NCBI GenBank assembly: GCA_002723385.1
Contig: PBNY01000069.1
Coordinates: 24,331 to 88,330, forward strand
From: Oceanospirillaceae bacterium
GTDB lineage: Bacteria > Pseudomonadota > Gammaproteobacteria > Pseudomonadales > Oceanobacteraceae
Direction: 5' to 3'
Length of the DNA stretch: 64,000 nucleotides
The stretch's first letter is position 1; each line of letters starts with the position of its first letter. The position numbers and the translations under genes are program-made. Shown here one piece after another: positions 11,639 through 34,320 of this stretch. The notes beneath the pieces were generated by a model that saw only the letters and a program-made list of their open reading frames with translations, was not told the origin of the DNA and made no database searches.

Positions 11639-12139
11639 ATGAAAAAGAAAAATGTGGGTTCTGTCGCCCCTAAAGAACGCGTCAATATCTCCTATAAGCC
11701 GGCCGTCGGCGATGGGAAACAACAAATCGAACTGCCGTTCAAGGCCCTCATTCTTGGGGACTTTACACAACGGCCGGACGATCGGGTTATTGAAGAGCGA
11801 GAAGCGGTCAGTATTAACCGCAACAACTTCGACGAAGTACTCGCTTCCATGAATCTCGAAACTTCCTTTAGCGTCCCTAACCACCTCACCAGTGATGGGA
11901 AAAAAGAACTGGATATCCAGTTCAATCCCAAGTCCATGAAGGATTTTACGCCGGACAGCCTGGTCGAATCCGTTCCCGAATTGAAGAAAGTCATTGAATT
12001 GCGTAATGCCCTGAAAGCACTGAAAGGCCCATTGGGCAACGTGCCACAGATGCGTCGCAAGATTCAGAGTCTGGTTACCGATGAGTCGACTCGTCAGCGT
12101 CTGCTGGATGAACTCAATACTGATCCCAAAAAATCATAA
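11639..12139 (+). CDS. tssB: T6SS small sheath subunit TssB (VipA)
   Basis: KERVNISYKPAVGDGKQQIELPFKALILGDFTQRPDD is the TssB signature. I prefer the ATG at 11639 (GGGAAG 5 nt upstream) over the GTG at 11618. Confidence 0.9.
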   Translation: MKKKNVGSVAPKERVNISYKPAVGDGKQQIELPFKALILGDFTQRPDDRVIEEREAVSINRNNFDEVLASMNLETSFSVPNHLTSDGKKELDIQFNPKSMKDFTPDSLVESVPELKKVIELRNALKALKGPLGNVPQMRRKIQSLVTDESTRQRLLDELNTDPKKS

Positions 12140-12156
12140 GAACGTTAGGTGCTGAC

Positions 12157-13611
12157 ATGACAACCACAGCGGATTCTGTAAAAGAAGATTCCTTGATTGG
12201 TGAAGTGCTGAGCTTCACCCGTGTCCCTGTTCAGGACGAGAGCTACCCTGTTGTAAAACAGGGTGTTGAAATGCTGCTGCAAGAGCTGCTTGGCCGAGAT
12301 CAGGAAACCGTTCGAGTCGACAAGTCGTTCGTTGACCAGCTGATTGAAGAATTGGATGGCCGTTTGAGTGCCCAAATGGACGCCATTCTCCACAACGAAC
12401 AGTTCCAGGCTGTTGAACGCCCGTGGCGCAGCCTGAAGTTTCTGGTTGATCGCACGGATTTCTCTCAGAATATCAAGCTTGAGATACTCAATGCGAACAA
12501 GGAAGACCTGAGCGAAGACTTTGACGATGCCCCGGATATCACTCAAACCGGTCTGTATCGTCGCGTTTACACGGATGAATACGGTCAGTTTGGTGGCGAA
12601 CCCTATGGCGTGATTTTGGGTGACTATGAATTCAGTCATCATGCCAAGGACATCAGCCTGCTGCGCAACATGGGTTCTTTGTCTGCCATGACGCATGCGC
12701 CATTCATCGCGGCGGCCAGCTATCAGTTCTTCGGCATTGACGATATCTCTGAACTGCCTTCGTTGAAGGAAATGGAATCCATTTTCGAAGGTGCACAGTA
12801 CGCCAAGTGGCAATCTCTGCGTGAATCTGATGACTCCCGTAATATCGGACTGGTACTGCCAGAGTTCATGCTGCGTTCTACCTACGGTGATGATCTGTTG
12901 GTGCGTTCCTTCGAATATCAGGAAGCGGCATCATCCAAGCAGGATTATCTCTGGGGTAACGCTTCCTTTGCTTATGCCAGTCGTTTGGTCGACAGCTTTG
13001 CCCAGTTCCGCTGGTGTCCGAATATCATCGGACCTCAATCCGGTGGTGCGCTGGAAGATCTTCCCATTCACGTCGTGGATGTGGATGGTACCGAGCAGAT
13101 CAATGGCCCGGTTGAGATCGTTATTTCAGATCGCAAAGAATACGAACTGTCTGAACTTGGCTTTATTCCCCTGACCTTGCGCAAGGGGGGGGATCAGGCG
13201 GTGTTCTTCTCCTCCAACTCGGTTCAGAAAGCCATCAAGTTCGACAACACCGAAGAAGGCAAGATCGCAGAGATCAACTACAAGTTGGGCACCCAGCTGC
13301 CGTATCTGTTCATCGTCAGCCGCCTGGCTCACTACATCAAGGTTCTGCAACGAGAGAATCTTGGTAGCTGGAAAACCCGTGCAGATCTGGAAACCGAATT
13401 GAACAAATGGCTGCGTCGTTATGTCGCCGATCAGGAGAACCCGTCCCCGGCAACTCGCAGCTCTCGTCCTTTGAGAAAAGCCAATATCGTTGTGTCAGAG
13501 GTTGAGGGTGATGCTGGCTGGTACTCCGTATCCATGAGTGTGACGCCGCACTTCAAGTTTATGGGTGCCGATTTCACGCTTTCACTGAGCGGAATTCTTG
13601 AAAGGGGCTAA
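12157..13611 (+). CDS. tssC: T6SS large sheath subunit TssC (VipB)
   Basis: 484 aa. Motifs include HNEQFQAVERPWRSLKFLV and EYGQFGGEPYGVILGDYEF. The C-terminus QLPYLFIVSRLAHYIKVLQRENLGSW...VTPHFKFMGADFTLSL is typical of VipB. Confidence 0.95.
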   Translation: MTTTADSVKEDSLIGEVLSFTRVPVQDESYPVVKQGVEMLLQELLGRDQETVRVDKSFVDQLIEELDGRLSAQMDAILHNEQFQAVERPWRSLKFLVDRTDFSQNIKLEILNANKEDLSEDFDDAPDITQTGLYRRVYTDEYGQFGGEPYGVILGDYEFSHHAKDISLLRNMGSLSAMTHAPFIAAASYQFFGIDDISELPSLKEMESIFEGAQYAKWQSLRESDDSRNIGLVLPEFMLRSTYGDDLLVRSFEYQEAASSKQDYLWGNASFAYASRLVDSFAQFRWCPNIIGPQSGGALEDLPIHVVDVDGTEQINGPVEIVISDRKEYELSELGFIPLTLRKGGDQAVFFSSNSVQKAIKFDNTEEGKIAEINYKLGTQLPYLFIVSRLAHYIKVLQRENLGSWKTRADLETELNKWLRRYVADQENPSPATRSSRPLRKANIVVSEVEGDAGWYSVSMSVTPHFKFMGADFTLSLSGILERG

Positions 13612-13739
13612 TGTTAATTCTGACGTGATCGAGGTCGCGTTCTGAAGGCCATTTTTCAACGCTTGGGTGCCGCAAACTGTCTCAGGCACTTCAAGCACCG
13701 GGGATCCGGTTGACCTAATGCAGATAAGGAGTACCACAC

Positions 13740-14285
13740 ATGCCAAATGAAATTTTTGTCACCATTGAAGACTCTGAAGGCAACAATCTGAGTGAAGGCG
13801 CATCGTCAAAAGAAAGTATCGGTGCGTACTACAAGGAAGATCACGAAGACAAAATCTTTGTTCAGGCTCTGGAGCAGCGCAGTGTCCTTCCTACCGATCC
13901 TCGTAATGGTCAGGTAACAGGTGTTCGTCGCTACGAATATCTTGAGATTACCAAACTGATCGACAAGAGCAGCCCATTACTGGCGCAACTGTTGTCACAG
14001 CCAACCGATTTGACCATCCACGTTGAGTTCTACCGTTCACCGGATGAAACCAGCAGTGGTGAGCCGGTTCGCTACTACCAGATCAAAATGGCCGAAGCCA
14101 AGTTAATTACTCTGGAAACATTGTCTCCGGATGCAATGGATCCGTCTAACGACAATTTTATGGCATACGAGCGTTGTCGCTTCAGCTTCAACGCCGTGGC
14201 TTGGAAGCATGATGTCAGCGGCACTGAGGCGGTTGATACTGCTTCCAACGGTGAAAACGCCGAGAACGTCGCTTTCGAAGACTAG
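13740..14285 (+). CDS. hcp: T6SS tube protein Hcp (TssD), paralogue 1
   Basis: 181 aa with the Hcp core motif EITKLIDKSSPLLAQLL and the downstream YYQIKMAEAKLITLE. There is a strong RBS (AAGGAG) upstream. Confidence 0.85.
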   Translation: MPNEIFVTIEDSEGNNLSEGASSKESIGAYYKEDHEDKIFVQALEQRSVLPTDPRNGQVTGVRRYEYLEITKLIDKSSPLLAQLLSQPTDLTIHVEFYRSPDETSSGEPVRYYQIKMAEAKLITLETLSPDAMDPSNDNFMAYERCRFSFNAVAWKHDVSGTEAVDTASNGENAENVAFED

Positions 14286-14302
14286 GCAGTCGACAAGCTC
14301 TG

Positions 14303-14325
14303 TGGGCTGTAGTGACGGCAGCCCA
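14303..14325 (+). other. Hairpin 18 nt downstream of hcp1 (possible attenuator)
   Basis: A 7-bp stem pairs TGGGCTG (14303-14309) with CAGCCCA (14319-14325) around a 9-nt loop. It is followed only by a weak T-containing tract (TTCGCATCTCTT). Confidence 0.25.
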
Positions 14326-14422
14326 TTCGCATCTCTTGATGCATTTGCCATGGCGGAGCACGCGACACCCGATGTCAATGTGCGTCTCTGTAGGATATCT
14401 CACCATGTATGGTTCCTGATGT

Positions 14423-15121
14423 ATGAATAGATGGATTGCGAGTGCGGGACTGATTGCCAGCATTCTGCTGACCCAGGCTTGTGCTGTGAAACCACCGGTT
14501 TGGAACGGCAGTATCGAAGACGAGCCGCCGTTGTCTCTGGATGATGCCAATCAGGCCGGGAACAACTGGGTCTGGCTGGACCAAACGTCAGATTGGTTCT
14601 ACCGCGATGGCGAACCGGTCAAACCGGACTACATGAACTGGGATTTTGAAGGCAAGGGCATTGCGTTTCGTTTTCTGGCGCCACAACAGTTGAATCTGCA
14701 CTCAGGCAGACCTCATACACTTTACCTGCGAGTTTTCCAGCTCTCTGATTTGAAAGTGTTTAACGACATGAAGAAGAGTCAGGCCGGTATTCGTGAGTTA
14801 CTGACCGCCACTGATATCGATCCAACGTTCCTCGCTACCAACGAATTTGTGATTTCGCCAGATGAAATGCTCAAAACGACGGTCGAGCGCATGAAGGATA
14901 CGCGGTTTGTCGCCATTGTGGCTGGCTACTATCAACTGGATCCGTCGGAAGTGGTCAAGGTTTTCCCCATTCCGGCAGTTGCCAACCGAACCGGCCATAC
15001 CGAGTGGACCGCACGATTGAATCCATTTGCAGATGATCCCCCGCCCGAGGCGGCACGAATCAAGGCCTGGGTAGATCTGGGGGTCACCAAGTTGTCTCGA
15101 CTGCAAATGCTTGCCGAATAA
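14423..15121 (+). CDS. tssJ: T6SS outer-membrane lipoprotein TssJ
   Basis: The signal peptide carries a lipobox (SILLTQAC). The TssJ-like block is HTLYLRVFQLSDLKVFNDM. Its position before tssK-tssL-tssM supports the call. At 232 aa it is longer than typical TssJ. Confidence 0.7.
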   Translation: MNRWIASAGLIASILLTQACAVKPPVWNGSIEDEPPLSLDDANQAGNNWVWLDQTSDWFYRDGEPVKPDYMNWDFEGKGIAFRFLAPQQLNLHSGRPHTLYLRVFQLSDLKVFNDMKKSQAGIRELLTATDIDPTFLATNEFVISPDEMLKTTVERMKDTRFVAIVAGYYQLDPSEVVKVFPIPAVANRTGHTEWTARLNPFADDPPPEAARIKAWVDLGVTKLSRLQMLAE

Positions 15122-15199
15122 ACACAATAAATAACATCGCAGCTGCTGCACTCAGGTTCTGGGGGGTGGCCACTGCACTCAGAAACAAGGATTCAACCG

Positions 15200-16591
15200 G
15201 TGAATGTGAAGCAGCCGCTTTCCTGGTACCAGGGGTTATTTTTACAACCACAGCACTTTCAGTATTCCAGCCTCCACCAGGAGCAACTGGTGATCCAATA
15301 CATGCGAGAAGTGTGTCCATACCCTTGGGGTGTGGCACAGATGCAGTTGGATGATCAGGCTCTGGCTGGTGAAGTTGTCGAGCTGAGATACATCAAGGCT
15401 ATTTTTGAAGATGGTACGCTGGTTGAGTTTCCTGACAACGTCCACCTGACTGCCCGCAGCATTGAGGACAACTGGCACGATACGACTCAGCCTTTAAATG
15501 TGTATCTGGGGCTTGCCAAGCTTGACCCGGCTGCGTCGAACGTCACAGAAGTTCCTTCTCTGGCCAGTGCTGCTGCCATTCATTCCCGCTTCGTTGGTTT
15601 GAACGAAGGGGCTGAAATGAAAGATCTCAACGAAGGCAACACGACCAATCCGGTCAAGACCCTGCGCTACGCCCTGGGAATTTACTTTGAACCCGAGTTG
15701 GCTGATTTACACGATAAACAACTTTTGCCGTTGTTCGCTCTGGAAAAGCAGGGCGAGGACATTCAGGTCAGCCAGCAATTTATCCCACCGGTACTGACGT
15801 TGTCGGGCTCAAGCCTGCTGCTGTCAATCATCAAGAATATTCGTGATGAACTGGTGGGCAGAAGCAAACAGCTCGAAAACTACAAAAGCACGCCAACCTC
15901 TCGTGCGGCAGAATTTAACCCGGTTGCAGAACGTTACCGCGTTGCCTTGAGAATGCTGGCGCATTACACACCGTCACTGCAGCACTGGTATGAAAATCCT
16001 GCGGTTCATCCCGCTGATGTTTACAGCCACTTGCGAAGTCTGGTCGGTGAACTGAGTACTTTCTCTCATCGGGTTAACCTGCTTGGCGAAGCAACCGGTG
16101 ACGGCCCTTCTTTGCCTCGTTATCAACACAATGATCTGGCGATCAGTTTCAACACTGCGCGTGAGCTGATTGTGTCTTTGCTGGACGAGCTGACTGTTAG
16201 TCCTGAACTGCTGGTGCGCTTCAACCGCGACGACGCGAACCGATTCTCTGCAGAGTTGCCAGGTGAGTTCTTTGCCCGCCAGCACGACTTGTATCTGGTG
16301 TTGGAAACCGGTGCGACCTATGCCGATTGGGTTGAGTCATTCGAAGGTTTCGCCAAGCTGGGTGCCAGTGGTGAAATTGATATCTACAACCAGCGTGCAA
16401 TTCCGGGGATTCCTTTCCAGGCTTATCCGGATCAACCTTCCGGGTTGGAGCGCCGTCCAAAAGTCAGTTACTTCACATTAAATCGCGACAGCGACAAATG
16501 GAAAGTCGTTGAGAGTCAGGGGCAGATAACTCTGCTCTGGGACGATGCACCGGAAGATCTGGTTGTTGAAATGGTCATTGTGCGGGGATAG
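15200..16591 (+). CDS. tssK: T6SS baseplate subunit TssK
   Basis: 463 aa with a GTG start. The N-terminal PLSWYQGLFLQPQHFQ is the hallmark TssK motif. Confidence 0.85.
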   Translation: MNVKQPLSWYQGLFLQPQHFQYSSLHQEQLVIQYMREVCPYPWGVAQMQLDDQALAGEVVELRYIKAIFEDGTLVEFPDNVHLTARSIEDNWHDTTQPLNVYLGLAKLDPAASNVTEVPSLASAAAIHSRFVGLNEGAEMKDLNEGNTTNPVKTLRYALGIYFEPELADLHDKQLLPLFALEKQGEDIQVSQQFIPPVLTLSGSSLLLSIIKNIRDELVGRSKQLENYKSTPTSRAAEFNPVAERYRVALRMLAHYTPSLQHWYENPAVHPADVYSHLRSLVGELSTFSHRVNLLGEATGDGPSLPRYQHNDLAISFNTARELIVSLLDELTVSPELLVRFNRDDANRFSAELPGEFFARQHDLYLVLETGATYADWVESFEGFAKLGASGEIDIYNQRAIPGIPFQAYPDQPSGLERRPKVSYFTLNRDSDKWKVVESQGQITLLWDDAPEDLVVEMVIVRG

Positions 16592-16602: not shown

Positions 16603-17259
16603 ATGAGACTGATCGATTGTTTTGTTGAAAGTCTGGCTTTGACCGTGTCTCTGACTCGTGGCGAAGCCGGTGTGAGCGGTCGGGACTTCAACGATGTTCG
16701 CCAACATCTGAATGGCCAACTGGCGAACGTGTCGGGGCAAGGGGCGCAGGGCGGATACAGTGAACCACAGATTCGCCACGCTCTGTTTGCGGTGGTCGCC
16801 TTTATTGATGAGCAGCTGGCGAGTACGTCCTGGTCTGGTCAGCAAGAGTGGTCACGCAATCTGTTGCAGCGAGAGTATTTCGACACAACCAATGCCGGGG
16901 TCGAATTCTATTCACGTCTGGATACCCTGAATCCGTTTAACCCGGCAGAACGCGATATTCGCGAAGTCTATTACTACTGTCTGTCGTTGGGATTCTCCGG
17001 CAAGTTTTACGGAGAAGGCGCCCAGTCTGCATTGAACAAGATACGTCGGGATAACTATGACTTGCTGGCTGGTGACGATGACAGTTCAGCGTTGTTCCCT
17101 GATGGCTTTGGCCAGCAGAAGACAGAGAGCGCACTGAAAGCCAGGAGAGACTTGAGTGCCCTGTATTACGGCTTGCCTGTGCTGCTGATCGTTGCAGCGT
17201 TTTTTTACTTCCGAAAGGAAATGCTGGATCTGGCCAACTTTCTGGTGATCTCCGTCTAA
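16603..17259 (+). CDS. tssL: T6SS membrane-complex subunit TssL (DotU family), no peptidoglycan-binding extension
   Basis: 218 aa with DotU-like blocks ALFAVVAFIDEQL and YYYCLSLGFSGKFY. There is a single C-terminal TM (LPVLLIVAAFFYF), and the protein ends shortly after it. Confidence 0.8.
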   Translation: MRLIDCFVESLALTVSLTRGEAGVSGRDFNDVRQHLNGQLANVSGQGAQGGYSEPQIRHALFAVVAFIDEQLASTSWSGQQEWSRNLLQREYFDTTNAGVEFYSRLDTLNPFNPAERDIREVYYYCLSLGFSGKFYGEGAQSALNKIRRDNYDLLAGDDDSSALFPDGFGQQKTESALKARRDLSALYYGLPVLLIVAAFFYFRKEMLDLANFLVISV

Positions 17260-20774: not shown

Positions 20775-20784
20775 AGATGACGCT

Positions 20785-26236: not shown

Positions 26237-29227
26237 ATGAGCGAACAGATAGCATTTACCTTCGCTTTGGCGGGTGCCCAAAAAGACGAAGTGTTTCAGG
26301 TTTTGACGTTCACGGGTGATGAAGGTATCTCACGCCTGTACGAATTCAATATTGAGTTGTTGTCAGATAACCCGGATGCCGATATTGATGCCATTCTGCA
26401 GCAACCAGCCACACTGACCCTGACTCAGGGAGACGATGTTCGTGTGATCCAGGGCATCGTTTCGCATTTTGACGCTGTGCGTCAAATCAACAATCAGGTG
26501 CTTTACAAGGCTCGCCTGGTACCCCGTTTGTGGGAGCTGTCGCTCTACCATACCAATGAAGTCTACCTGGAGATGACGGTTCCGGAGATCATCGAGGCGG
26601 TACTGACGGAGGGCGGTTTTGAAAGCGTCGATTACGACCTTTCCGATCTTCAGAGTGACTACAAAAAATGGGCGTACAAATGCCAGTACGGTGAAACGCA
26701 CCTGGACTTTATCTCGCGTTTGATGGAACGCGATGGCATCTACTACTACTTCACTCGTGGCGAAGTGGGCGAAAAAGTTGTCTTCTGTGATCAGCTCACC
26801 ATGCAGGAATCATTACCCAATGCAGTGGTGCAATACAGTGCGGCATCGTCGCTGGAAATTAACGCCCTGCCAAACACCGTTCATAGCTTTGTCAGTCAGC
26901 AAAAGCGCCTGCCCTACCGCGTGATGCTGAAGGACTACAACGATGACAAACCATCGGTTGACGTCAAGGGTGAAGCCATCATCGACGACAGCGCCAACAA
27001 GAGCAGTGAGATTTACGTTTGGGGCCAGAATATTGAAACCCCGGAAGAAGGCGAACAACTGGCGCTAATCCGGGCAGAACAGATTCGCGCTGGCAAGAAA
27101 CTGTTCCATGGCGAAAGCTCGGTTAACCGACTGATCCCCGGTTACTTCTTTACTCTTCAAGGGCATTTCCGCGGTGCCTGCAATCAGGATTACTGTCTGC
27201 TTGGATTGCATCATGAAGGCACCGACCGGCGTCTGATTGACGGCGGTAACAGCAGCCAGGCGCTGGCCTACCGAAATGAACTCAGTGCCCAGCCAGCTGA
27301 CGTGCAATATCGCCCAGCCCTTGAGACCCCGCGCCCGGAAATTCACGGTGTATTGAATGCCTACGTCGATTCCGAAGGTGACGGCCACTATGCAGAAATC
27401 GATGAAGAAGGGCGCTACCGAATCCTGCTGCCATTTGACCGTGTTGATCGCGACGGCGGCAAGGCATCACATTGGATTCGGATGAGCCAGCCATTCGCGG
27501 GAGAAAATCAGGGGATGCATTTTCCCTTGCGTAAGGGCACAGAAGTGTTACTTACCTTTGTGGGAGGAGATCCAGATCGTCCGGTGATCGCCGGTTCCAT
27601 GCCAAACGCCGGAGCACCGAGCGTTATCAATGCCGAAAACCATACCAACAGTTTGATTCAGACCAAGGCCGGTAACCGCATTGAGTTGGAAGACAAGGAC
27701 GGTAAGAACCGGATCAAGTTTGAGACTCCTCAAAACGGCACTTATATGCACTTGGGGGCGCCTAACCATGCGGGTGATGGTTGGGTGGTCGTCACCGACG
27801 GTATCGAGCGTAAAGCGATTTCTGGCGGGCAGCAATATACCGTCGTAACCAACAATACAACGGATAAGGATAATAGCCGGGTTGATTTTGGAATTAGTGG
27901 CAAGACAGGAATGGAATCGACAAATACCAAGGCATCTCCTACTGGAACGGTCAATGATGATCCGGTCAACCTTTTTCCCTTCACTACTCGTATTGACGAC
28001 CTGCCCAATATGGGTGCTCTTTCTGCAACCGATATTAGTAAACTGAACGAGTTGGGTAAGCTGAAAACCATATCTTCCTCATCAGGGGCTGGTAATTCTG
28101 GTACAACAACACAAAATGGAGAAACCACAACCTGGGCTACCGGCCCAAGCTTGAGTGCAAGGACCTTATTATCCTACGAAGATGAAATCAGTGGAGATTA
28201 TATAGTCAGTCGTAAAAAGGGGGTGCGTTATGTTTGGGAAGATGGTATTGAATTTAATTATGGACAAGGCTTTGTTTATACGTTTGGCAACTCTCATGAG
28301 GTGACAGTCTGGAATCGGCAAGATACGGGTGCCGGTGCAAAACTTGTTCAGGATATGTTTTCTCGTAACGTTCAGGGGTTAAAGGCGTTTGGAGGAAATC
28401 CGGCGACAACGAACTGGAAAGAAATGATATCAAAAGGAGAATTTGTTGTTAAACAAACCGATACCTTTACGGCTCAGAATGGCAATATTTATGACTTTGG
28501 CGGCTATTGGAACTATAATCTGGGAAACTCTTACGAAGAAAATCATATCGAACAGAATACATCTATAAATCGATCTGATCTTAAAGAAGACAAAGCTTCT
28601 CCAGGTGGACCTGATTGGACATCTTTGACAGGAAAAGATATTGGAAGTATGACGGCTGGAAAAACGTGGGTGACCAAATCTATTGGAAATACCTACGAAT
28701 ATCAGTTGGGAGATACCCTGGAAGTGGTCGTTGGGGACATCGAAATTCAGCACTATGGAAAAAGTTATGGATACTTTGAATCGTACTTTAAAGAGGAGTT
28801 TAGGGGGCGATCGGAATCTTATTTCTATGGAGCTGCTAGTGAAATATTCATTGGTGCATCGAATGATTTGCGTGTTGGCGCAGCTAGTGAAATGAAGCTT
28901 ATAGGTGGTAATAACGTGAATCTCGGAGTTTGGACCGATATAAATATAGGGCTTGCCTTGAATATTAGTAAGGGGTGGACAATCACTTTTGATACTGCAG
29001 GGGAACTAAGGAAAAGCGTTATGACTATGGATAAAGTTGAGACGAAACTCAAGAAAATTAGTGCCGAGTTAGCTAATTCAGACATGAAGATACGTTCGGC
29101 GAAGGCCAAAATCGACGACTTTAAGTCTCAAATAGAGAATGGCAAGGCGTTAGTTGGAAAGTACAAGTTTAAGGTCGAGAAAGACGGAATTGTAGCCATT
29201 AACGCAAAACTCATGAATGTTTCTTGA
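26237..29227 (+). CDS. vgrG: T6SS spike protein VgrG (TssI) with a ~450-500-aa C-terminal extension
   Basis: 996 aa. gp27/gp5 motifs are ISRLYEFNIELLSD, DFISRLMERDGIYYYF and HWIRMSQPFAGENQGMHFPLRKGTEVLLTFVGGDPDRPVIAGSMPN. An extension follows that ends in a Lys-rich coiled coil (KVETKLKKISAELANSDMKIRSAKAKIDDFKSQIENGK). Confidence 0.9.
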   Translation: MSEQIAFTFALAGAQKDEVFQVLTFTGDEGISRLYEFNIELLSDNPDADIDAILQQPATLTLTQGDDVRVIQGIVSHFDAVRQINNQVLYKARLVPRLWELSLYHTNEVYLEMTVPEIIEAVLTEGGFESVDYDLSDLQSDYKKWAYKCQYGETHLDFISRLMERDGIYYYFTRGEVGEKVVFCDQLTMQESLPNAVVQYSAASSLEINALPNTVHSFVSQQKRLPYRVMLKDYNDDKPSVDVKGEAIIDDSANKSSEIYVWGQNIETPEEGEQLALIRAEQIRAGKKLFHGESSVNRLIPGYFFTLQGHFRGACNQDYCLLGLHHEGTDRRLIDGGNSSQALAYRNELSAQPADVQYRPALETPRPEIHGVLNAYVDSEGDGHYAEIDEEGRYRILLPFDRVDRDGGKASHWIRMSQPFAGENQGMHFPLRKGTEVLLTFVGGDPDRPVIAGSMPNAGAPSVINAENHTNSLIQTKAGNRIELEDKDGKNRIKFETPQNGTYMHLGAPNHAGDGWVVVTDGIERKAISGGQQYTVVTNNTTDKDNSRVDFGISGKTGMESTNTKASPTGTVNDDPVNLFPFTTRIDDLPNMGALSATDISKLNELGKLKTISSSSGAGNSGTTTQNGETTTWATGPSLSARTLLSYEDEISGDYIVSRKKGVRYVWEDGIEFNYGQGFVYTFGNSHEVTVWNRQDTGAGAKLVQDMFSRNVQGLKAFGGNPATTNWKEMISKGEFVVKQTDTFTAQNGNIYDFGGYWNYNLGNSYEENHIEQNTSINRSDLKEDKASPGGPDWTSLTGKDIGSMTAGKTWVTKSIGNTYEYQLGDTLEVVVGDIEIQHYGKSYGYFESYFKEEFRGRSESYFYGAASEIFIGASNDLRVGAASEMKLIGGNNVNLGVWTDINIGLALNISKGWTITFDTAGELRKSVMTMDKVETKLKKISAELANSDMKIRSAKAKIDDFKSQIENGKALVGKYKFKVEKDGIVAINAKLMNVS

Positions 29228-29234
29228 GTGAGCA

Positions 29235-32186
29235 ATGAAAGTCATCAAAAGCTCTGTCCTATCAATTCAAACGCGCAGGTTCACCTATCTAAACAGGTTT
29301 GTTCAGTCGATGGCGGTATACGTTCCTTTTCAGTTAGGTGAACGAAGCATTCCAAGGCTAGAACAAGATTTGTTTGATGCCCTTGAGCCTACACTTGAAT
29401 TGGGCATCGACTCTTGCGTTAAAAAGCAACATCCAGAGTTTTTGGTTAATGGTGTTTTTTACAGCCATCATGGACAAGGAGTCACTGGAGGAGAAGTTGG
29501 CGTTACTATTGGAAGTGTCAGCAAGGAACTCTACGTTTTCGGTGATCGGTATTGGCAGATGAATGGTTTGCCTAGCAATCCGGGTGAAATTTCTGAAATG
29601 CCACTTTTGTTGGCTAACGCATTCGGTGGTTCCCAATATACCCATAACCCGTTAGGGAAAGGCATTGAAAAGGACGGTGACGGTATTCAGTGGTTACCTA
29701 ATGTCGAAGATCCCAAAAGTCTGTTGACCTCTCCTGGAGCGATTTCTCGCCCCGCGACTTTGGGGCCTTTGAGAGTTCTTGATTCTCCGAGGATGGAAAT
29801 GCTCGGTCCTGTTGGAGAGGATGATGATCCCTTTAACCTTCCAACCCAAATTGACTGGCGTTACTTCAATGACGCGCCATCTGATCAGTGGTTCAAGAAG
29901 CCTTTGACGGGTCGTGAGCGTTACCGCTTTAGCAATTTACATCCTGAGTTGTCTGTTATTGAAGGCGTGATTCCCCAGTGGCGCGCCCGGGCCTTTATCA
30001 AGCGTAAGTTGGAAAATACAGATGATACGGTTGAGGAAGTTCCTTTGGTGTTGGACACCTTGTGGTTTGCTCCTCATAAAGAGCTGGGAGCGTTGGTTTT
30101 TCATGGTTCAACCGAAGTCTGTGATCGTTACGGCTCAGATGTGACTCATCTTCTTGCTGCCTTTGAGGATTCTGATGATACCGGTAGAGACCTTTGCTGG
30201 TACCAGGCTGCTATAGAAAATAGAGAGGATGAAAACCAAGCATTGAAATATATGCTGTATCAGCGGGATATTGTGCCCGCAAGTATCGATCTTGATGATC
30301 AGGATGCTCTCAATGATGTTGATGATATTCAGGGGTTTACTGGAAACAATCTGGACGAGCGTTTTGAACAGATGGATGAGGAAATAAATGGACATGTTTC
30401 TGAGCAGTTACAAAAGTCGATAGATCAACTTTCGACACAGATAAAGCAGCTTTCCGAAAATAATGCAGGCTCTGCTGTTATTAAACCGTTGATGGAAAAG
30501 AAACGAGAATTAGAAGACTTCAGAGACAGGCCTGAAGGCTCTGATGGACAAGATCCAGAGTTAGTTGCACTTCTGACTTTAATTGATGAAGCCTTGCCAA
30601 AGTCAAAGAAAGATCCAGAGCAGATAGATTTACTTGCTGTAGATTTAAATAAACTGGATGTTTTTGGAAACAAAATTGATGAGTATATAAGTGGTAAGAT
30701 CAAGGAAGCTGTGCCTGAGTTAAAAGATTCAGTTTTAGGTGCGAAAGATAACGTTAATACTCACATTGATGGAAAGGGAAATTTATTATCGCAAGATGCT
30801 GCACCCCCTCACCTGGAAGGGATGGATGTTGACGCGCAACTTGAGGAATTAACGGCGCGTATCGAATTAATTGGTGACGATGACAAGGAAATTGATCCTC
30901 TGGTCAGGCCGCCCGATGGACATGAGTTGGATCAGACCGAAAAGTCGATCAAAGATAACTTTGAAACAGCGATTAGTGAATTAAAATCTCTGCTGGGCAG
31001 CGAACATGGTAATACAGTTAATAACTCTGAACTGACAGAGTTGCCGTCCTATCACGAATTACAGCAGCAGTATGCTGCCTTAATTGAGGATATCCGGGCC
31101 GAGAAAAAAGAGCTCGCTGAGACTGGCCTGGAAATGAAAGGTCTGTATTTAATGGGGGCTCATTTGATGGATGAAGGTCTTTCTCCCCATAATATGCCAT
31201 TGGATGATCTGAAACGAAAATTCAGGAAAGCCTGTCAAGATAATGAGCTTCATGGTCAAGATTGGGCTTGCCTGGAATTTGATAATGACCGCTGGGATGA
31301 TATTGATCTTGGTGATTGTTATCTGGAACAAACCCGATTTGATCATTGCCTGTTCAATGATGTCGTATTCGATAAGTCAATTTTTGCGAGGGCGACATTT
31401 ACGTCCTGTAAATTTGAGCGATGCTCTTTTGTTGACACCAATCTGGGAGCGGTCGTATCTGAATGTAATGAATTCATCGACTGTGACTTCCCGAGTGCCA
31501 TCCTTTCCAACAGTAGCTTCAGCAAAACCCGATTCTCGAAATGCCGTATTGAAGACTGTCAAACAATGGACCTGGTTCTTAATTCCACCGTATTTCACGA
31601 ATGCACAGTCTCTGACCTGAATTTCCTTGAATCTGAATTGACGGATTGCAGGTTTGTTCACTGCCATCTGGCAGACATGAATTTTTTGGAAGTTCAGGCG
31701 TCTCGCTTTGTGATGGCCGACTGTGATATCGAGGCTCTGAGCTTTATCGATTGCAAAATGCCAGCGTCAGATTTCTCTGAGTCGCGAGTTAAGGGTTTGA
31801 ATTTCTCTGGTGACAATACGCTGGATAAAAGTAATTTCTCAGACATCAAGGGATCTGGTTTTTGTGTAGGAAATGCCAGTTTGATGGATTCCAACTTCAA
31901 CAACGTCCAGTTGGAAAATGCGTATTTTGGTGGGGCAAGCCTTGGCAACATTCAGATGAAAAGCTCTGGATTAACGAGAGCCAATTTTATGGATGCAAGG
32001 ATGGATGGAGCCGATTTCAGAGGCAGTAATCTGTTTGAGGCCAATCTGGGTAATACCAGTCTGGTGAGCGCGGATTTTCGCAATACCAATTGTTTCAGTG
32101 TCAATTTTCTGGACGCTACTTTGGGAGATACACGCTTTGCCGGAGCCGACTTGTCCAACACTCTGATTGAGGATTGGCGTCCATGA
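29235..32186 (+). CDS. DUF2169-family T6SS adaptor-like domain fused to an acidic helical linker and a C-terminal pentapeptide-repeat domain
   Basis: 983 aa. The N-terminal ~320 aa carry DUF2169-like blocks: ELYVFGDRYW, ANAFGGSQYTHNPLGKG, LPNVEDP, IDWRYFNDAPSDQW and VLDTLWFAPH. A D/E-rich region of ~350 aa follows. The C-terminal ~290 aa have clear 5-residue periodicity, for example ANFMDARMDGADFRGSNLFEANLGNTSLVSADFRNTN. Confidence 0.75.
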   Translation: MKVIKSSVLSIQTRRFTYLNRFVQSMAVYVPFQLGERSIPRLEQDLFDALEPTLELGIDSCVKKQHPEFLVNGVFYSHHGQGVTGGEVGVTIGSVSKELYVFGDRYWQMNGLPSNPGEISEMPLLLANAFGGSQYTHNPLGKGIEKDGDGIQWLPNVEDPKSLLTSPGAISRPATLGPLRVLDSPRMEMLGPVGEDDDPFNLPTQIDWRYFNDAPSDQWFKKPLTGRERYRFSNLHPELSVIEGVIPQWRARAFIKRKLENTDDTVEEVPLVLDTLWFAPHKELGALVFHGSTEVCDRYGSDVTHLLAAFEDSDDTGRDLCWYQAAIENREDENQALKYMLYQRDIVPASIDLDDQDALNDVDDIQGFTGNNLDERFEQMDEEINGHVSEQLQKSIDQLSTQIKQLSENNAGSAVIKPLMEKKRELEDFRDRPEGSDGQDPELVALLTLIDEALPKSKKDPEQIDLLAVDLNKLDVFGNKIDEYISGKIKEAVPELKDSVLGAKDNVNTHIDGKGNLLSQDAAPPHLEGMDVDAQLEELTARIELIGDDDKEIDPLVRPPDGHELDQTEKSIKDNFETAISELKSLLGSEHGNTVNNSELTELPSYHELQQQYAALIEDIRAEKKELAETGLEMKGLYLMGAHLMDEGLSPHNMPLDDLKRKFRKACQDNELHGQDWACLEFDNDRWDDIDLGDCYLEQTRFDHCLFNDVVFDKSIFARATFTSCKFERCSFVDTNLGAVVSECNEFIDCDFPSAILSNSSFSKTRFSKCRIEDCQTMDLVLNSTVFHECTVSDLNFLESELTDCRFVHCHLADMNFLEVQASRFVMADCDIEALSFIDCKMPASDFSESRVKGLNFSGDNTLDKSNFSDIKGSGFCVGNASLMDSNFNNVQLENAYFGGASLGNIQMKSSGLTRANFMDARMDGADFRGSNLFEANLGNTSLVSADFRNTNCFSVNFLDATLGDTRFAGADLSNTLIEDWRP

Positions 32187-33250
32187 GCCTGACGCGTGAC
32201 CAACTCATTGCTCAGGTGAAGGGTGAGACGGTTCTGCTGGAAGAACTTGATTTGTCGGGTATGGACTTGTCAGGTATCGACCTGACAGGTGGCGTTTTTT
32301 CTGAGGTTGTATTCGACAACGTCAATTTCTCTGGAGCCGATTTACGTGAATGCAAGTTCCTGAATTGCCGTTTTGACAACACCAATTTGTCCGAGTCGGA
32401 TCTTCGTAACAGTGAATGGATTGAGTCAGCTGGATCCTGCATTGTGTTTACCGGTGCTGTGATTCGTGGAGCCAGTTTCATAGAGCCTGATATGCCCAAT
32501 GCAACGCTGGCCCATTCAGATTTGTGTGACTCAAACTGGATTGAACCCAGATTAACCGGCGCCAATTTCACGGGTTCAAAAATGGAAGCGGTTTCGTTTA
32601 TTGAACCGGACTTGCAAGGAGCTGTTTTCGATCAGGCCTGGATGCATCGTTGTTCACTGATTGAAGCGGATTTGAGCGGCGCCTCTTTTAACGAAACGGT
32701 GCTGGAAACCATCTTGTTCAATGAAAGCCAGTGCGCTGGGCTGAATTTTAGCCTTTCCAATACAGATAATGCATTGCTTCAGTTTCAGGCATCTGATTTG
32801 ACGGATGCGGAGTTCTCCGGGTGCCGCCTCATCATGTGCGGATTTATGGGGTGTACATTGCATCGGGTGAATTTTTCGGATGCGGATCTGAGTCAGGCGT
32901 TGTTGGCGAATGCCGAGCTGGTTGGTGTTTCAGGTAACAATGCCACTCTTGAGCAGACCGTGCTGGACTCTGCTCAACTCACGGGATGTGAATTCCGGCA
33001 TATCAAGGCGAAAGAATCCATTTTCAGTAATACAAAGATAGATGGCTGCTTTTTCAATGGCGCTGACTTCACTTACGCTGACTTTTCCCACAGCGGTATC
33101 TTTCAGAGTGACTTCAGTAAAACCGGTTTATTTCGAACCAATTTTCACTGTATGGATGACGGTATGGTGTTGTGGGCGGGTTCGAACAAGAACGAGGCCT
33201 TGGGAACAGACCCCAAGAGAAAGAAGGCAGAATCCTTCGAGGTGAAATGA
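32174..33250 (+). CDS. Pentapeptide-repeat protein
   Basis: 358 aa, almost entirely A(D/N)LxX-type repeats (DLSGMDLSGIDLTGGVFSEVVFDNVNFSGADLRECKFLNCRFDNTNLSESDL...). Its start overlaps the upstream gene by 13 nt. Confidence 0.85.
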   Translation: MASMSLTRDQLIAQVKGETVLLEELDLSGMDLSGIDLTGGVFSEVVFDNVNFSGADLRECKFLNCRFDNTNLSESDLRNSEWIESAGSCIVFTGAVIRGASFIEPDMPNATLAHSDLCDSNWIEPRLTGANFTGSKMEAVSFIEPDLQGAVFDQAWMHRCSLIEADLSGASFNETVLETILFNESQCAGLNFSLSNTDNALLQFQASDLTDAEFSGCRLIMCGFMGCTLHRVNFSDADLSQALLANAELVGVSGNNATLEQTVLDSAQLTGCEFRHIKAKESIFSNTKIDGCFFNGADFTYADFSHSGIFQSDFSKTGLFRTNFHCMDDGMVLWAGSNKNEALGTDPKRKKAESFEVK

Positions 33251-33903
33251 TTATGAATGCTGAAGTAAAAGAGTTCAGTCGGTCTGGTCGTGTGCCAAGC
33301 CATGAAGCCGCAGAGGTACTGTCTGTCGAAGCCCGATGGTTCACCGTGCGTACCCAAAGTGGTATGCATCGTGCGCGTCGTTCATTCGATTGCCTCGTTG
33401 TCCCTCGTCTGGGCGACACTGTACTAATCGCTCACCTGGATGCCGGAAACTGGATTCTGAATGTACTGGAACGTCATGCAGAAGATGACATGTCATTGGA
33501 AGTTGAAGGTAATCTGACGCTTGTTTCCAAACAGGGAGCGGTGCGTCTGGTTGGACAGCATGTCCAGCATCATGCCGAACAGCGATTGGATTTGAGCGCT
33601 GCCAGCTACCAGCTTCATGCAGAATCCAGCAGGCAGGTTTCTAAAACAGTATCTGTTGTGAGCAACAAGGCGCAGCTGAGCACCAGGCAGGTTGATGTCT
33701 CTGCGGAAAATGCGCTGGTTCGACTGGGGAACCTGATGCAGCGGGTCAAGAACAGCGTGCGACAGGTTCAGGAAACAGAGAGTGTGACGTGTGGACAGCT
33801 GTTACAGACAGTGAGACGGTGTTTCAAGAGTCATGCAAAGCAGAGTCTGATTACGTCTGAAACCGATATTAAAATAGACGCCAAGCGCATTCATATGGGG
33901 TAG
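33247..33903 (+). CDS. DUF3540-like protein
   Basis: I prefer the ATG at 33247, which overlaps the upstream TGA as ATGA, giving 218 aa. The block RSFDCLVVPRLGDTVLIAHLDAGNWILNVLERH resembles the conserved DUF3540 N-terminal motif. It occupies the canonical position between pentapeptide and DUF4150 genes. Confidence 0.6.
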   Translation: MIMNAEVKEFSRSGRVPSHEAAEVLSVEARWFTVRTQSGMHRARRSFDCLVVPRLGDTVLIAHLDAGNWILNVLERHAEDDMSLEVEGNLTLVSKQGAVRLVGQHVQHHAEQRLDLSAASYQLHAESSRQVSKTVSVVSNKAQLSTRQVDVSAENALVRLGNLMQRVKNSVRQVQETESVTCGQLLQTVRRCFKSHAKQSLITSETDIKIDAKRIHMG

Positions 33904-33909
33904 CGAGTT

Positions 33910-34320
33910 ATGTTTGCCAATACTCAAGGCGGTGCGATGAGCATGGCCATGCCGGACATCTGCAAGTTTCCAACACCTTCACCGGCCGGACCGATTCCAA
34001 CCCCCATGCCATACCCGAATATGGCAATGTCGACCATGGCGGTCCCGAATTTCACAAAATGGATGATTCTGGGGATGCCTGTGCATAATCTGGGAACCAC
34101 AATCACCATGACCAGCGGTGATGAACCCGGCGTTTTGGGCGGGGTTGTTTCCAACATGATCAAGGGCCCTTGCAAGCATTTGAAAGGCAGTACCAAGGTA
34201 CTGGCCGGGGGAATGCCTGTGACCAGAATGCTTGACCAGACAGGCCAGAACGGTGCGGCTCCCAACGCCATGGGGACGACCATGAAACCGGCGCAAACCA
34301 AAGTCATGATCATGTCCTGA
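33910..34320 (+). CDS. PAAR-like spike-tip protein (DUF4150 family) without toxin extension
   Basis: 136 aa. MPDICKFPTPSPAGPIPTPMPYPNMA is the DUF4150 signature. The protein ends right after the PAAR-like fold. Confidence 0.8.
   Translation: MFANTQGGAMSMAMPDICKFPTPSPAGPIPTPMPYPNMAMSTMAVPNFTKWMILGMPVHNLGTTITMTSGDEPGVLGGVVSNMIKGPCKHLKGSTKVLAGGMPVTRMLDQTGQNGAAPNAMGTTMKPAQTKVMIMS

What the first reader, a model, noticed from the sequence alone, without database searches (positions are those of the whole stretch)
11639..34320. Otherwise complete T6SS core string lacking tssA and clpV, with a bare DotU and no known regulators
Seen in the sequence:
- tssB, tssC, hcp, tssJ, tssK, tssL, tssM, hcp2, tssE, tssF, tssG, vgrG and a PAAR-like gene are contiguous and co-directional. 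Gaps are at most 137 nt and several start/stop codons overlap.
- None of the other ORFs between 11.6 and 49.9 kb has a double AAA+ Clp architecture or an ImpA_N-like N-terminus.
- The only P-loops I see are in TssM (GHQQTGKT) and in HsdR, which lies outside the cluster.
- TssL is 218 aa with no peptidoglycan-binding domain.
- No Fha, PpkA/PppA or TagF-type genes occur.

Established knowledge: ClpV-less systems exist. Francisella uses ClpB, and Campylobacter-type loci also lack it. TssA-family proteins are considered core for sheath priming in proteobacterial T6SS-i.

Inference: either the functions are supplied in trans, or this is a distinct T6SS architecture.
Basis: partly seen in the sequence, partly recalled or inferred. 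Interest (0 to 1): 0.7.

Follow-up and report, generated by a model that had tools for sequence, protein, structure and literature searches.

The report
TssA-less T6SS with second, fused sheath
This is an intact type VI secretion gene cluster from a marine bacterium that has no tssA or clpV but carries an overlooked second sheath gene (TssB and TssC fused into one chain) and a second tube gene, a layout conserved in many marine bacteria and apparently not yet described.

Summary
The string 11639-34320 is an intact, co-directional T6SS. Pfam, NCBIfam and six-frame tblastn with real TssA and ClpV queries find neither gene anywhere in the window.

It encodes a single-chain TssB-TssC fusion that lacks the TssB C-terminus and the first ~55 residues of TssC, including the ClpV-recruiting helix.

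The order tssB-tssC-hcp1-tssJKLM-tssBC'-hcp2-tssEFG recurs in Oceanobacter, Psychrosphaera, Oceanospirillum, gamma proteobacterium HdN1, a contig whose TssC is identical to that of Pseudoalteromonas tunicata, and several MAGs, each in a different genomic context. None has tssA upstream of tssB or clpV in the locus.

Deeper relatives that also carry the fusion keep clpV between tssC and hcp1, and one keeps a VasJ-type tssA. The losses are therefore stepwise and lineage-wide, not an assembly gap.

A 2009 whole-genome Pfam survey reported that P. tunicata D2 lacks ImpA. That argues against supply of TssA in trans, at least there.

I read this as a new variant of the V. cholerae-like T6SS-i. I infer, without direct evidence, that the fused sheath and Hcp2 form a baseplate-proximal primer that makes TssA dispensable. 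Sheath recycling by ClpB or a trans ClpV remains open.

The parts
11339..11638 (+). Intergenic region upstream of tssB (300 nt), presumed promoter region. The gene upstream is an unrelated GntR-aminotransferase regulator.
   Evidence: There is one weak sigma-70-like match at 11557-11585, no better than shuffled sequence. No tssA remnant.
11639..12139 (+). tssB, canonical small sheath subunit (166 aa)
   Evidence: PF05591, 175 bits. Gene call in L001. 80% identical to Oceanobacter.
12157..13611 (+). tssC, canonical large sheath subunit (484 aa), V. cholerae VipB-like. It keeps an N-terminal helix, SLIGEVLSFTRV.
   Evidence: PF05943 + PF18945. Best PDB match is 5mxn VipB, 615 bits. N-terminal alignments.
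13740..14285 (+). hcp1, presumed bulk tube protein (181 aa)
   Evidence: TIGR03344, 129 bits. 94% identical to Oceanobacter, the most conserved gene of the locus.
14423..15121 (+). tssJ lipoprotein (divergent)
   Evidence: PF12790, 55 bits; TIGR03352, 33 bits. Lipobox LTQAC.
15200..16591 (+). tssK
   Evidence: PF05936, 310 bits.
16603..17259 (+). tssL, DotU domain only, no peptidoglycan-binding domain
   Evidence: PF09850 over residues 3-203 of 218; TIGR03349.
17286..20774 (+). tssM with Walker A motif GHQQTGKT. The periplasmic C-terminal ~700 aa match no model.
   Evidence: Only IcmF-related_N hits. TIGR03348 covers residues 7-447 at 214 bits, below its cutoff of 388. The C-terminal 695 aa give no Pfam hit at E<=1.
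20785..22509 (+). tssBC', a single-chain second sheath protein (574 aa). It comprises TssB residues ~1-125, a ~30-aa linker, and TssC from residue ~55 to the end. It lacks the TssB C-terminus and the ClpV-recruiting N-terminal helix of TssC.
   Evidence: PF05591 + PF05943 + PF18945 in one ORF. Alignment to VipB residues 48-469 and TssB residues 24-125. Junction alignment. AF2 pLDDT 82, pTM 0.85. Foldseek TssC chains TMt 0.75-0.85, TssB chains 0.52-0.66. Conserved family.
22529..23020 (+). hcp2, second tube paralogue, always paired with tssBC'
   Evidence: PF05638, 91 bits. Synteny in all related loci. 71% identical to Oceanobacter.
23020..23448 (+). tssE (gp25-like)
   Evidence: PF04965.
23451..25175 (+). 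tssF
   Evidence: PF05947, 430 bits.
25139..26131 (+). tssG
   Evidence: PF06996, 262 bits.
26237..29227 (+). vgrG (996 aa) with a ~520-aa C-terminal extension of unknown fold
   Evidence: Phage_GPD + Phage_base_V. The C-terminal 516 aa have no Pfam hit. GC falls to 0.43 from 28 kb.
29235..32186 (+). DUF2169 + pentapeptide-repeat protein (TagAB-like spike/PAAR chaperone)
   Evidence: PF09937, 191 bits, plus pentapeptide families. Review PMC13584744.
32174..33250 (+). Pentapeptide-repeat protein (TagB-like)
   Evidence: PF00805 / PF13599.
33172..33903 (+). DUF3540 protein (TagC-like)
   Evidence: PF12059, 154 bits.
33910..34320 (+). PAAR-like (Tox-PAAR-like) spike tip (TagD-like)
   Evidence: PF13665, 116 bits.
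34368..35693 (+). Membrane-anchored TAXI/NMT1-like solute-binding protein with two TM segments and a cytoplasmic coiled-coil tail. Recurrent neighbour of this T6SS type; probable sensor or accessory.
   Evidence: PF16868, TIGR02122. Sequence features. Homologues in L005 and HdN1 L089.
35712..37217 (+). Sel1-repeat lipoprotein (lipobox LITGC), periplasmic. It recurs next to the PAAR-like gene in HdN1.
   Evidence: PF08238. Sequence. L089 homologue, 34% identity.

Best explanation
**What it is.** The locus is an intact member of a conserved, V. cholerae-like (T6SS-i1-derived) lineage of type VI secretion systems in marine and other Gammaproteobacteria.

The lineage is defined by a duplicated tail module inserted between tssM and tssE. 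That module is a single-chain TssB-TssC fusion (tssBC') plus a second Hcp. In the sub-lineage that includes this window (group A), tssA has been lost, and in most members clpV as well. The absence is therefore a property of the architecture, not a gap.

**How it probably works (inferred, not shown).**
- TssJLM and TssEFGK-VgrG-PAAR-like assemble as usual.
- A ring of TssBC' around an Hcp2 ring sits on the baseplate as a built-in sheath/tube initiator. It would template polymerisation of the highly conserved bulk TssB/TssC sheath and Hcp1 tube in the extended state.
- This would replace the priming and chaperoning role of a class-A (VasJ) TssA, much as tube-initiator and first-layer sheath paralogues do in phage tails and eCIS.
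- TssBC' lacks the ClpV-recruiting helix, so it would not be stripped after firing.
- The contracted bulk sheath would be recycled by the housekeeping ClpB (as in Francisella), by an unlinked ClpV, or slowly without an unfoldase.

**Rough probabilities.**
- Distinct, self-contained TssA-less architecture: ~0.8.
- TssBC'/Hcp2 as baseplate-proximal primer specifically: ~0.35.
For: **Shown by tool results.**
- All 12 structural genes plus vgrG and the PAAR-like gene are intact, with no TssA or ClpV in any frame.
- The gene order including tssBC'-hcp2 is identical in Oceanobacter mangrovi, Psychrosphaera, two uncultured lineages, gamma proteobacterium HdN1, Oceanospirillum multiglobuliferum and L092, a contig whose TssC is identical to that of P. 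tunicata. In each, unrelated genes lie upstream of tssB (CRISPR I-F, SPOR, HAMP-SpoIIE, a divergent vgrG set, LuxR) and there is no clpV.
- Relatives keep an 860-890-aa ClpV between tssC and hcp1 (L005/L093, L094, L009, L031, L068). L006 keeps a VasJ-domain ORF abutting tssB.
- NJ trees separate a TssA/ClpV-bearing group B from group A.
- The fusion removes TssB residues ~126-166 and TssC residues ~1-55. It keeps the N-terminal TssB strand and the C-terminal TssC strand. The AF2 model matches TssC and TssB chains.
- Conservation between the window and Oceanobacter: TssC 86%, Hcp1 94%, TssB 80%. By contrast TssBC' is 65% and Hcp2 71%, close to TssE at 63% and TssL at 66%. The extra pair therefore evolves like low-copy baseplate parts, not like bulk polymer.
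- TssBC' evolves much faster in group A (25-39% identity to canonical TssC) than in group B (44-52%).
- All ClpV-bearing TssCs share LL[DE][QE]IM.[HQ]T. All ClpV-less ones have shifted to L[ILV][DG][EG][IVL]L..[TS].
- The family is large. At least 37 of the best 150 representatives of 50%-identity clusters are full-length single-chain fusions.

**From the literature.**
- P. tunicata D2: one T6SS, 'lacks ImcF and ImpA', in a whole-genome Pfam scan (PMC2702493).
- A V. cholerae tssA deletion mutant still kills, at a reduced rate, and its sheath grows at 3 instead of 23 nm/s (PMC6745524).
- ClpV is recruited by the N-terminal TssC helix and is specific to its cognate TssC (PMC5048182).
- Francisella uses ClpB (PMC5481754).
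- In eCIS, tube paralogues form a tube initiator on the spike (PMC8894135).
Against: - No whole genome of a member could be searched here, so an unlinked tssA or clpV is not excluded for this MAG. The MAG is also incomplete.
- Group B loci have both a TssA (L006) and the fusion. TssBC' did not originate as a TssA replacement, so its role may be unrelated to TssA.
- Canonical TssC of ClpV-less loci still keeps an N-terminal helix. This could mean an unfoldase still binds.
- The motif shift is shared by related lineages and may reflect a single ancestral event.
- Placing TssBC'/Hcp2 at the baseplate rests only on gene adjacency, evolutionary rate and analogy.
- There are no expression or functional data for any member.
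Confidence: 0.6

Rival explanations
1. TssA and/or ClpV are supplied in trans, from a second T6SS cluster or orphan genes elsewhere in the genome. On this reading the locus is a canonical machine with two relocated genes.
For: - The canonical TssC keeps an N-terminal helix homologous to the ClpV-binding helix.
- Close relatives (L005/L093, L094) still use a ClpV encoded in the locus.
- The source is an incomplete MAG.
- Many bacteria carry several T6SSs (established knowledge).
Against: - At least eight lineages in unrelated genomic contexts all lack both genes in the locus.
- The P. tunicata D2 genome has no ImpA_N at all (PMC2702493).
- No ClpV among the 120 closest relatives of the family's ClpV is named from any ClpV-less member taxon.
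- ClpVs of different T6SSs are not interchangeable in EAEC (PMC5048182).
- The ClpV-contact motif has shifted in every ClpV-less TssC.
Confidence: 0.2
2. TssBC' and Hcp2 act at the distal end as a terminating cap. They would mimic the sheath handshake and functionally replace TssA/TagA there, rather than acting at the baseplate.
For: - Class-A TssA sits at the distal end (PMC6745524).
- eCIS caps and cap adaptors mimic the handshake to terminate the sheath (PMC8894135).
- TssBC' keeps both handshake strands.
Against: - The genes sit directly upstream of tssE-F-G, not with the bulk tail genes.
- A cap that must be added last has no obvious length sensor.
- Group B has both TssA and the fusion.
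Confidence: 0.12
3. The locus builds two alternative tails on one baseplate and membrane complex: TssB/TssC/Hcp1 or TssBC'/Hcp2. These could carry different cargo, with the second tail being ClpV-independent by design.
For: - A complete second sheath-plus-tube pair exists and is always co-inherited.
- The fusion lacks the ClpV-recruiting helix.
Against: - TssBC' and Hcp2 evolve far faster than the bulk polymer genes, which is unexpected for a self-polymerising tail.
- Only one vgrG/PAAR set is present in the window.
Confidence: 0.1
4. The cluster is a decaying, non-functional remnant that has begun to lose core genes.
For: - Two genes usually counted as core are missing.
- The Psychrosphaera algicola copy (L004) is broken into many ORFs.
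Against: - All remaining genes are intact here and in seven other lineages.
- Conservation is strong across genera (TssC 86%, Hcp1 94%).
- Start and stop codons overlap in operon fashion.
- Other Psychrosphaera copies are intact.
Confidence: 0.04

Closest known systems
Vibrio cholerae-type T6SS-i (VipA/VipB sheath, VasJ-class TssA, ClpV). The nearest canonical example fetched here is Amphritea sp. (L095).
   Same: - The canonical TssC is closest to VipB among solved structures (615 bits).
- The ClpV of ClpV-bearing family members is 52-57% identical to the Amphritea ClpV.
- The TssA fragment in L006 is of the VasJ class and abuts tssB, as in Amphritea.
- All baseplate and membrane-complex families are present.
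   Different: - No TssA, ClpV, VasH or Fha.
- Different gene order.
- An extra fused sheath gene plus a second hcp between tssM and tssE.
- The TssM periplasmic part matches no ImcF or IcmF_C model.
- The spike module is of the DUF2169 / DUF3540 / PAAR-like type.
Francisella T6SS-ii
   Same: It lacks ClpV and a recognisable TssA, and recycles its sheath with the housekeeping ClpB (PMC5481754; PMC13584744).
   Different: - The sheath here is far closer to VipB (615 bits) than to IglB (266 bits).
- Standard TssE/F/G/K/J/L/M families are all recognisable here.
- To my knowledge (not checked here) Francisella has no second sheath paralogue.
Burkholderia T6SS-5 accessory set TagAB / TagB / TagC / TagD
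   Same: vgrG is followed by a DUF2169+pentapeptide gene, a pentapeptide gene, a DUF3540 gene and a DUF4150-type PAAR-like gene. In Burkholderia these are reported as required for sheath assembly and Hcp secretion (PMC13584744).
   Different: - The review lists these genes only for Burkholderia T6SS-3, -4 and -5.
- T6SS-5 has its own TssA and ClpV (my recollection, not tested here).
- The core here is V. cholerae-like.
Phage tails and extracellular contractile injection systems with initiator paralogues (e.g. AlgoCIS Alg5/Alg7; AFP/PVC multiple sheath and tube proteins)
   Same: - They use paralogues of the tube protein, and in AFP/PVC of the sheath protein (recalled, not checked), as special first layers on the baseplate.
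- They need no TssA (PMC8894135).
- Foldseek also reaches AFP and PVC baseplate sheath chains weakly.
   Different: - Those systems have tape-measure and terminator proteins and no TssJLM. Here none of those was found.
- The paralogue here is a recent duplicate of T6SS TssB/TssC, not an eCIS sheath.

Membership tests
T6SS-i (proteobacterial, 13 'core' genes) | TssB/TssC contractile sheath | tested here: met
   PF05591, 175 bits; PF05943, 397 bits; PF18945, 144 bits.
T6SS-i (proteobacterial, 13 'core' genes) | Hcp tube, VgrG spike, PAAR or PAAR-like tip | tested here: met
   Two Hcps (TIGR03344, 129 and 132 bits), VgrG with Phage_GPD at 253 bits, Tox-PAAR-like at 116 bits.
T6SS-i (proteobacterial, 13 'core' genes) | Baseplate TssE, TssF, TssG, TssK | tested here: met
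   PF04965, PF05947, PF06996, PF05936.
T6SS-i (proteobacterial, 13 'core' genes) | Membrane complex TssJ, TssL, TssM with ImcF-related and IcmF_C periplasmic domains | tested here: inconclusive
   TssJ, DotU and IcmF-related_N are present. The C-terminal 695 aa of TssM match no Pfam model at E<=1, and TIGR03348 scores below its cutoff.
T6SS-i (proteobacterial, 13 'core' genes) | TssA (ImpA_N, PF06812) | tested here: not met
   No ImpA_N or VasJ hit in any ORF. tblastn with the Amphritea TssA gives no hit at E<=0.01. Positive control: 92 bits for ImpA_N and 169 bits for VasJ.
T6SS-i (proteobacterial, 13 'core' genes) | ClpV/TssH (Clp_N + two AAA+ modules) | tested here: not met
   No AAA_2, AAA_lid_9 or ClpB_D2-small hit in the window. 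tblastn with three ClpVs found nothing in the window, while they hit L005, L009, L031, L068, L093 and L094.
V. cholerae-like subtype (i1) | Sheath sequence closest to VipA/VipB | tested here: met
   5mxn/5ojq VipB at 615 bits, against P. aeruginosa TssC1 at 327 and IglB at 266. This is a ranking against solved structures only, not a full subtype phylogeny.
V. cholerae-like subtype (i1) | Formal placement of TssC, TssF and TssM in published subtype trees | not testable with these tools
   No reference set of subtype-labelled sequences was available.
Fused-sheath T6SS lineage (defined here) | Single-chain VipA+VipB+VipB_2 gene followed by a second hcp, between tssM and tssE, in addition to canonical tssB and tssC | tested here: met
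   Window, plus L004-L006, L009, L031 and L084-L092.
Burkholderia-type TagAB/TagB/TagC/TagD spike accessory set | DUF2169+pentapeptide, pentapeptide, DUF3540 and DUF4150-type PAAR-like genes downstream of vgrG | tested here: met
   PF09937, PF00805/PF13599, PF12059, PF13665. Feature definitions from PMC13584744.
Francisella-type ClpB-dependent recycling | Sheath disassembly depends on housekeeping ClpB | not testable with these tools
   Needs genetics or imaging. clpB is not in the window.

The most novel reading that the evidence does not exclude
A duplicated, single-chain, ClpV-blind sheath protomer together with a dedicated Hcp paralogue forms a permanent initiator (or cap) ring. This ring took over the priming and chaperoning job of TssA. 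A T6SS-i would thus have reverted to a phage/eCIS-like, TssA-independent and ClpV-independent assembly cycle. It would be the first natural T6SS-i shown to run without TssA, and a direct handle on what TssA actually does.
Probability: 0.3. Interest if true: 0.85.

Novelty: new variant of a known kind. Interest (0 to 1): 0.68.

Why it matters
TssA is the least understood 'core' component of proteobacterial T6SSs. It is thought to prime the baseplate and chaperone sheath-tube co-polymerisation.

A widespread natural lineage of V. cholerae-like systems that has dropped TssA, and usually ClpV, while keeping an extra truncated single-chain sheath and a second Hcp is a ready-made evolutionary experiment. 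It shows which functions can be replaced and suggests by what. It also offers cultured organisms (P. tunicata, Oceanobacter, Oceanospirillum, Psychrosphaera, HdN1) in which sheath initiation and recycling can be tested.

There is a practical consequence for annotation. Pipelines that require TssA, ClpV or the ImcF domain will score these loci as incomplete, and gene callers label the fusion simply as 'sheath large subunit'.

Tried and rejected
- **Cryptic TssA.** I looked for one among the unassigned ORFs. The TAXI-like protein has two TM segments, the Sel1 protein and the giant Big_2 protein have lipoboxes, and the 318-aa ORF has a signal peptide. None is a cytoplasmic candidate and none hits ImpA_N or VasJ.
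- **Remnants of tssA or clpV.** None in the tssB upstream region or the 128-nt tssC-hcp1 gap (tblastn).
- **Relocated same-subtype ClpV.** I queried with the L005 ClpV. None of the top 120 hits is named from a ClpV-less member taxon, but most hits are unnamed, so this is only a weak negative.
- **Literature.** Searches for a natural TssB-TssC fusion, and for T6SSs described as lacking or missing tssA, found nothing relevant beyond the 2009 footnote.
- **Promoter and terminator scan of 11250-14500.** No better than shuffled sequence.
- **Whole-genome search.** Not possible.
- **Second structure prediction.** Not run. Alignments built from fetched loci are not accepted, and single-sequence models would be poor.
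- **Midpoint-rooted NJ trees.** Used only for grouping, not for dating the losses. The position of the L005/L093 branch differs between markers.

Full report
**1. What is in the window**

ORF listing and Pfam/NCBIfam scans show one co-directional string on the + strand:
- tssB 11639-12139
- tssC 12157-13611
- hcp1 13740-14285
- tssJ 14423-15121
- tssK 15200-16591
- tssL 16603-17259
- tssM 17286-20774
- a 574-aa ORF 20785-22509
- hcp2 22529-23020
- tssE 23020-23448
- tssF 23451-25175
- tssG 25139-26131
- vgrG 26237-29227
- a DUF2169+pentapeptide gene 29235-32186
- a pentapeptide gene 32174-33250
- a DUF3540 gene 33172-33903
- a PAAR-like gene 33910-34320

Gaps between genes run from -79 to 137 nt. 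TssL is a bare DotU domain. TssM carries GHQQTGKT at residue 123. The same sequence is present in an ENA 144-kb contig, the NCBI MAG GCA_002296235.1 (Oceanospirillaceae bacterium) and a Logan assembly.

**2. The absence of tssA and clpV is real in this window**

No ORF between 0 and 64 kb hits ImpA_N, T6SS_VasJ, Clp_N or the ClpB/ClpV AAA modules.

Six-frame tblastn gives nothing at E<=0.01 in the window. The queries were a full-length canonical TssA (Amphritea, fetched) and ClpVs from Amphritea, L005 and L009. The same queries light up the relatives that do have these genes. The Pfam models score the Amphritea TssA at 92 bits (ImpA_N) and 169 bits (VasJ), so the method works.

The gene upstream of tssB is an unrelated GntR-aminotransferase regulator. 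The tssC-hcp1 gap is only 128 nt. No FHA, kinase, phosphatase or TagF gene is present.

**3.

tssM and hcp2 are separated by a 1,725-nt gene whose product carries T6SS_VipA, VipB and VipB_2 in one chain.
- Against solved structures, residues 22-123 align to TssB/VipA residues ~24-125, and residues 153-569 align to VipB 48-469.
- An alignment of concatenated canonical TssB+TssC with twelve fused proteins shows what the fusion deletes. It removes the last ~40 residues of TssB and the first ~55 residues of TssC, and replaces them with a ~30-residue linker.
- The N-terminal TssB strand (…DKFDFSYQ…LPLKLLLLGDF) and the C-terminal TssC strand (…LSVTPHMKFQGQDFTLAL) are kept. From established sheath structures, these are the inter-protomer 'handshake' elements.
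- The deleted TssC segment contains the N-terminal helix that recruits ClpV (PMC5048182).
- An AlphaFold model built on 18 family members is confident (pLDDT 82, pTM 0.85). It superposes on TssC chains (TM 0.75-0.85) and TssB chains (0.52-0.66) of V. cholerae, M. xanthus and P. aeruginosa sheaths.

The locus therefore encodes two sheaths and two tubes.

**4. It is a conserved lineage, not a one-off**

The fused protein has homologues with the same three-domain make-up in Oceanobacter mangrovi, Psychrosphaera and many metagenomes. At least 37 of the best 150 representatives of 50%-identity clusters are full-length single-chain fusions.

Fetching loci around the fusion and around canonical TssC homologues shows the same order, tssB-tssC-hcp1-tssJ-K-L-M-tssBC'-hcp2-tssE-F-G, in:
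- O. mangrovi (L084)
- Psychrosphaera (L085/L086, and a fragmented copy L004)
- an uncultured lineage (L087/L088)
- gamma proteobacterium HdN1, complete genome (L089)
- Oceanospirillum multiglobuliferum (L090)
- a further MAG (L091)
- a contig whose TssC is identical to that of Pseudoalteromonas tunicata (L092)

In each, tssB is the first T6SS gene and its upstream neighbours are unrelated: CRISPR-Cas I-F, a SPOR protein, a HAMP-SpoIIE phosphatase, a divergent vgrG set, or a LuxR regulator. None has a clpV or a tssA.

**5. Relatives that still have the genes**

Five more distant loci with the fusion form a separate group B in NJ trees of TssK, Hcp1 and TssL (L006, L009, L031, L068, L018).
- L009, L031 and L068 carry an 860-890-aa ClpV between tssC and hcp1 (AAA_2, AAA_lid_9, ClpB_D2-small, Clp_N).
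- L006 has an ORF with the C-terminal VasJ domain of TssA that ends exactly where tssB starts. That is the position tssA occupies in the canonical Amphritea cluster.

Within group A, the L005/L093 lineage and L094 keep clpV at the same place.
- L093 has an HNH gene, not tssA, upstream of tssB.
- L094 has a divergent vgrG set upstream of tssB.
- L005 shows no tssA downstream of tssG.

The simplest history, which is an inference, has three steps:
1. A V. cholerae-like system duplicated and fused its sheath genes and duplicated hcp.
2. It then lost tssA.
3. Most descendants then lost clpV.

Two correlates support real functional change:
- The fused paralogue is 44-52% identical to canonical TssC in group B but only 25-39% in group A.
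- Every ClpV-bearing TssC has the helix motif LL[DE][QE]IM.[HQ]T, whereas every ClpV-less TssC has L[ILV][DG][EG][IVL]L..[TS]. Examples are SLIGEVLSFT in the window and LIDGLLALS in L092.

These lineages are related, so the shared changes may be a single event.

**6. In trans or not**

I could not search a chosen genome. Indirect evidence is as follows.
- A 2009 survey scanned whole marine genomes with seven T6SS Pfam models. It lists P. tunicata D2 as having one T6SS that 'lacks ImcF and ImpA' (PMC2702493). This matches both the missing TssA and the unrecognisable periplasmic part of TssM found here.
- A homologue search with the family's own ClpV returned 120 hits at 53% identity or more. 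None is named from Oceanobacter, Psychrosphaera, Pseudoalteromonas, HdN1 or Oceanospirillum. This is weak, because most hits are unnamed.
- ClpVs are specific for their cognate TssC in EAEC.

On the other side, the canonical TssC keeps an N-terminal helix, and the MAG is incomplete.

ClpB-driven recycling has a precedent in Francisella (PMC5481754). V. cholerae without TssA still assembles some sheaths, about eightfold more slowly, and still kills (PMC6745524). A recent review notes that TssA is absent from T6SS-ii and T6SS-iii (PMC13584744). It does not mention a TssA-less T6SS-i.

**7. Mechanism proposed**

What is shown is gene content, domain deletions, synteny and evolutionary rates. The rest is inferred.

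tssBC' and hcp2 sit immediately upstream of tssE-F-G. Between the window and Oceanobacter they are 65% and 71% identical. That is close to TssE (63%) and TssL (66%), and far below TssC (86%) and Hcp1 (94%). This fits low-copy adaptor parts rather than the bulk polymer.

I therefore propose that a TssBC' ring around an Hcp2 ring forms a built-in first layer on the baseplate and VgrG. This layer would template co-polymerisation of the bulk sheath and tube, doing what class-A TssA otherwise chaperones. It would be blind to ClpV. Tube-initiator paralogues in eCIS are the closest analogy (PMC8894135).

Alternatives are a distal cap, a second alternative tail, or a role unrelated to TssA. Group B having both TssA and the fusion shows that the fusion predates the loss.

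**8. Other accessory content**
- The genes after vgrG match the Burkholderia TagAB/TagB/TagC/TagD set, reported as required for sheath assembly and Hcp secretion there. The DUF2169 / PAAR-like pairing is a known spike-chaperone arrangement.
- A membrane-anchored TAXI-like protein and a Sel1-repeat lipoprotein follow. They recur beside this T6SS type in HdN1, and the TAXI-like protein also in L005. Both are envelope proteins, so neither is a hidden TssA.

**9. Verdict**

The finding is real and more interesting than stated. It is a new variant of a known kind: a V. cholerae-like T6SS-i lineage with a second, fused, ClpV-blind sheath and a second Hcp, no TssA and usually no ClpV. I found no description of it in the searchable literature beyond a 2009 table footnote.

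Noticed in passing
window 37259-49907: A 3,421-aa protein with a lipoprotein signal (…LILTAC) and at least 14 Big_2 domains. It is followed by a 318-aa secreted coiled-coil ORF with no family match, and then by a TPR + SlipAM/DUF560 beta-barrel outer-membrane protein. This looks like a Slam-dependent giant surface lipoprotein module, co-directional with the T6SS string.
   Followed up: partly
window 28000-32000: GC drops to 0.43, against 0.51-0.55 on either side. The dip covers the C-terminal half of vgrG and the DUF2169-pentapeptide gene, which suggests an exchanged spike/adaptor cassette. The 516-aa VgrG C-terminal extension matches no Pfam family.
   Followed up: partly
window 17286-20774 and all related loci: The periplasmic C-terminal ~700 aa of TssM match no ImcF-related or IcmF_C model in the whole family. 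TssJ is also weak. The membrane complex may be structurally divergent. This agrees with 'lacks ImcF' for P. tunicata D2 in PMC2702493.
   Followed up: partly
L087 6921-9151; L089 6994-9246; L092 4934-8194: Several relatives carry two recurring gene groups that are absent from the window. L087 and L089 have a HAMP-SpoIIE (PP2C) phosphatase plus a 114-120-aa weakly STAS/SiaC-like ORF directly upstream of tssB. L087, L089 and L092 have an Orn/DAP decarboxylase, an MFS transporter and a ~260-aa weakly Cache-like ORF nearby. This may be a partner-switching regulatory module for this T6SS type.
   Followed up: partly
L004 (Psychrosphaera algicola G1-22): In this copy tssC, tssL, tssM, the fusion, tssF and tssG are each split into several ORFs, while the copies in L085 and L086 are intact. 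This could be sequencing error or pseudogenisation.
   Followed up: no
proteins P0067-P0094; P0355, P0358, P0370, P0378 and similar: Other single-chain VipA+VipB proteins exist. Proteins of mostly ~440-630 aa with no VipB_2 hit occur in Rhodothermales, Planctomycetes and Aliidongia, and a 700-aa one carries a guanylate-cyclase domain. Separately, 600-710-aa proteins look like full-length TssB+TssC fusions. Natural sheath fusions may have arisen more than once.
   Followed up: no
window 4815-8051 (-) and 60229-63821 (+): Flanking genes: a PAS-GGDEF-EAL protein with a C-terminal chemoreceptor zinc-binding domain lies upstream of the cluster, and an HNH endonuclease plus a type I restriction HsdR lie at the right end.
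   Followed up: no
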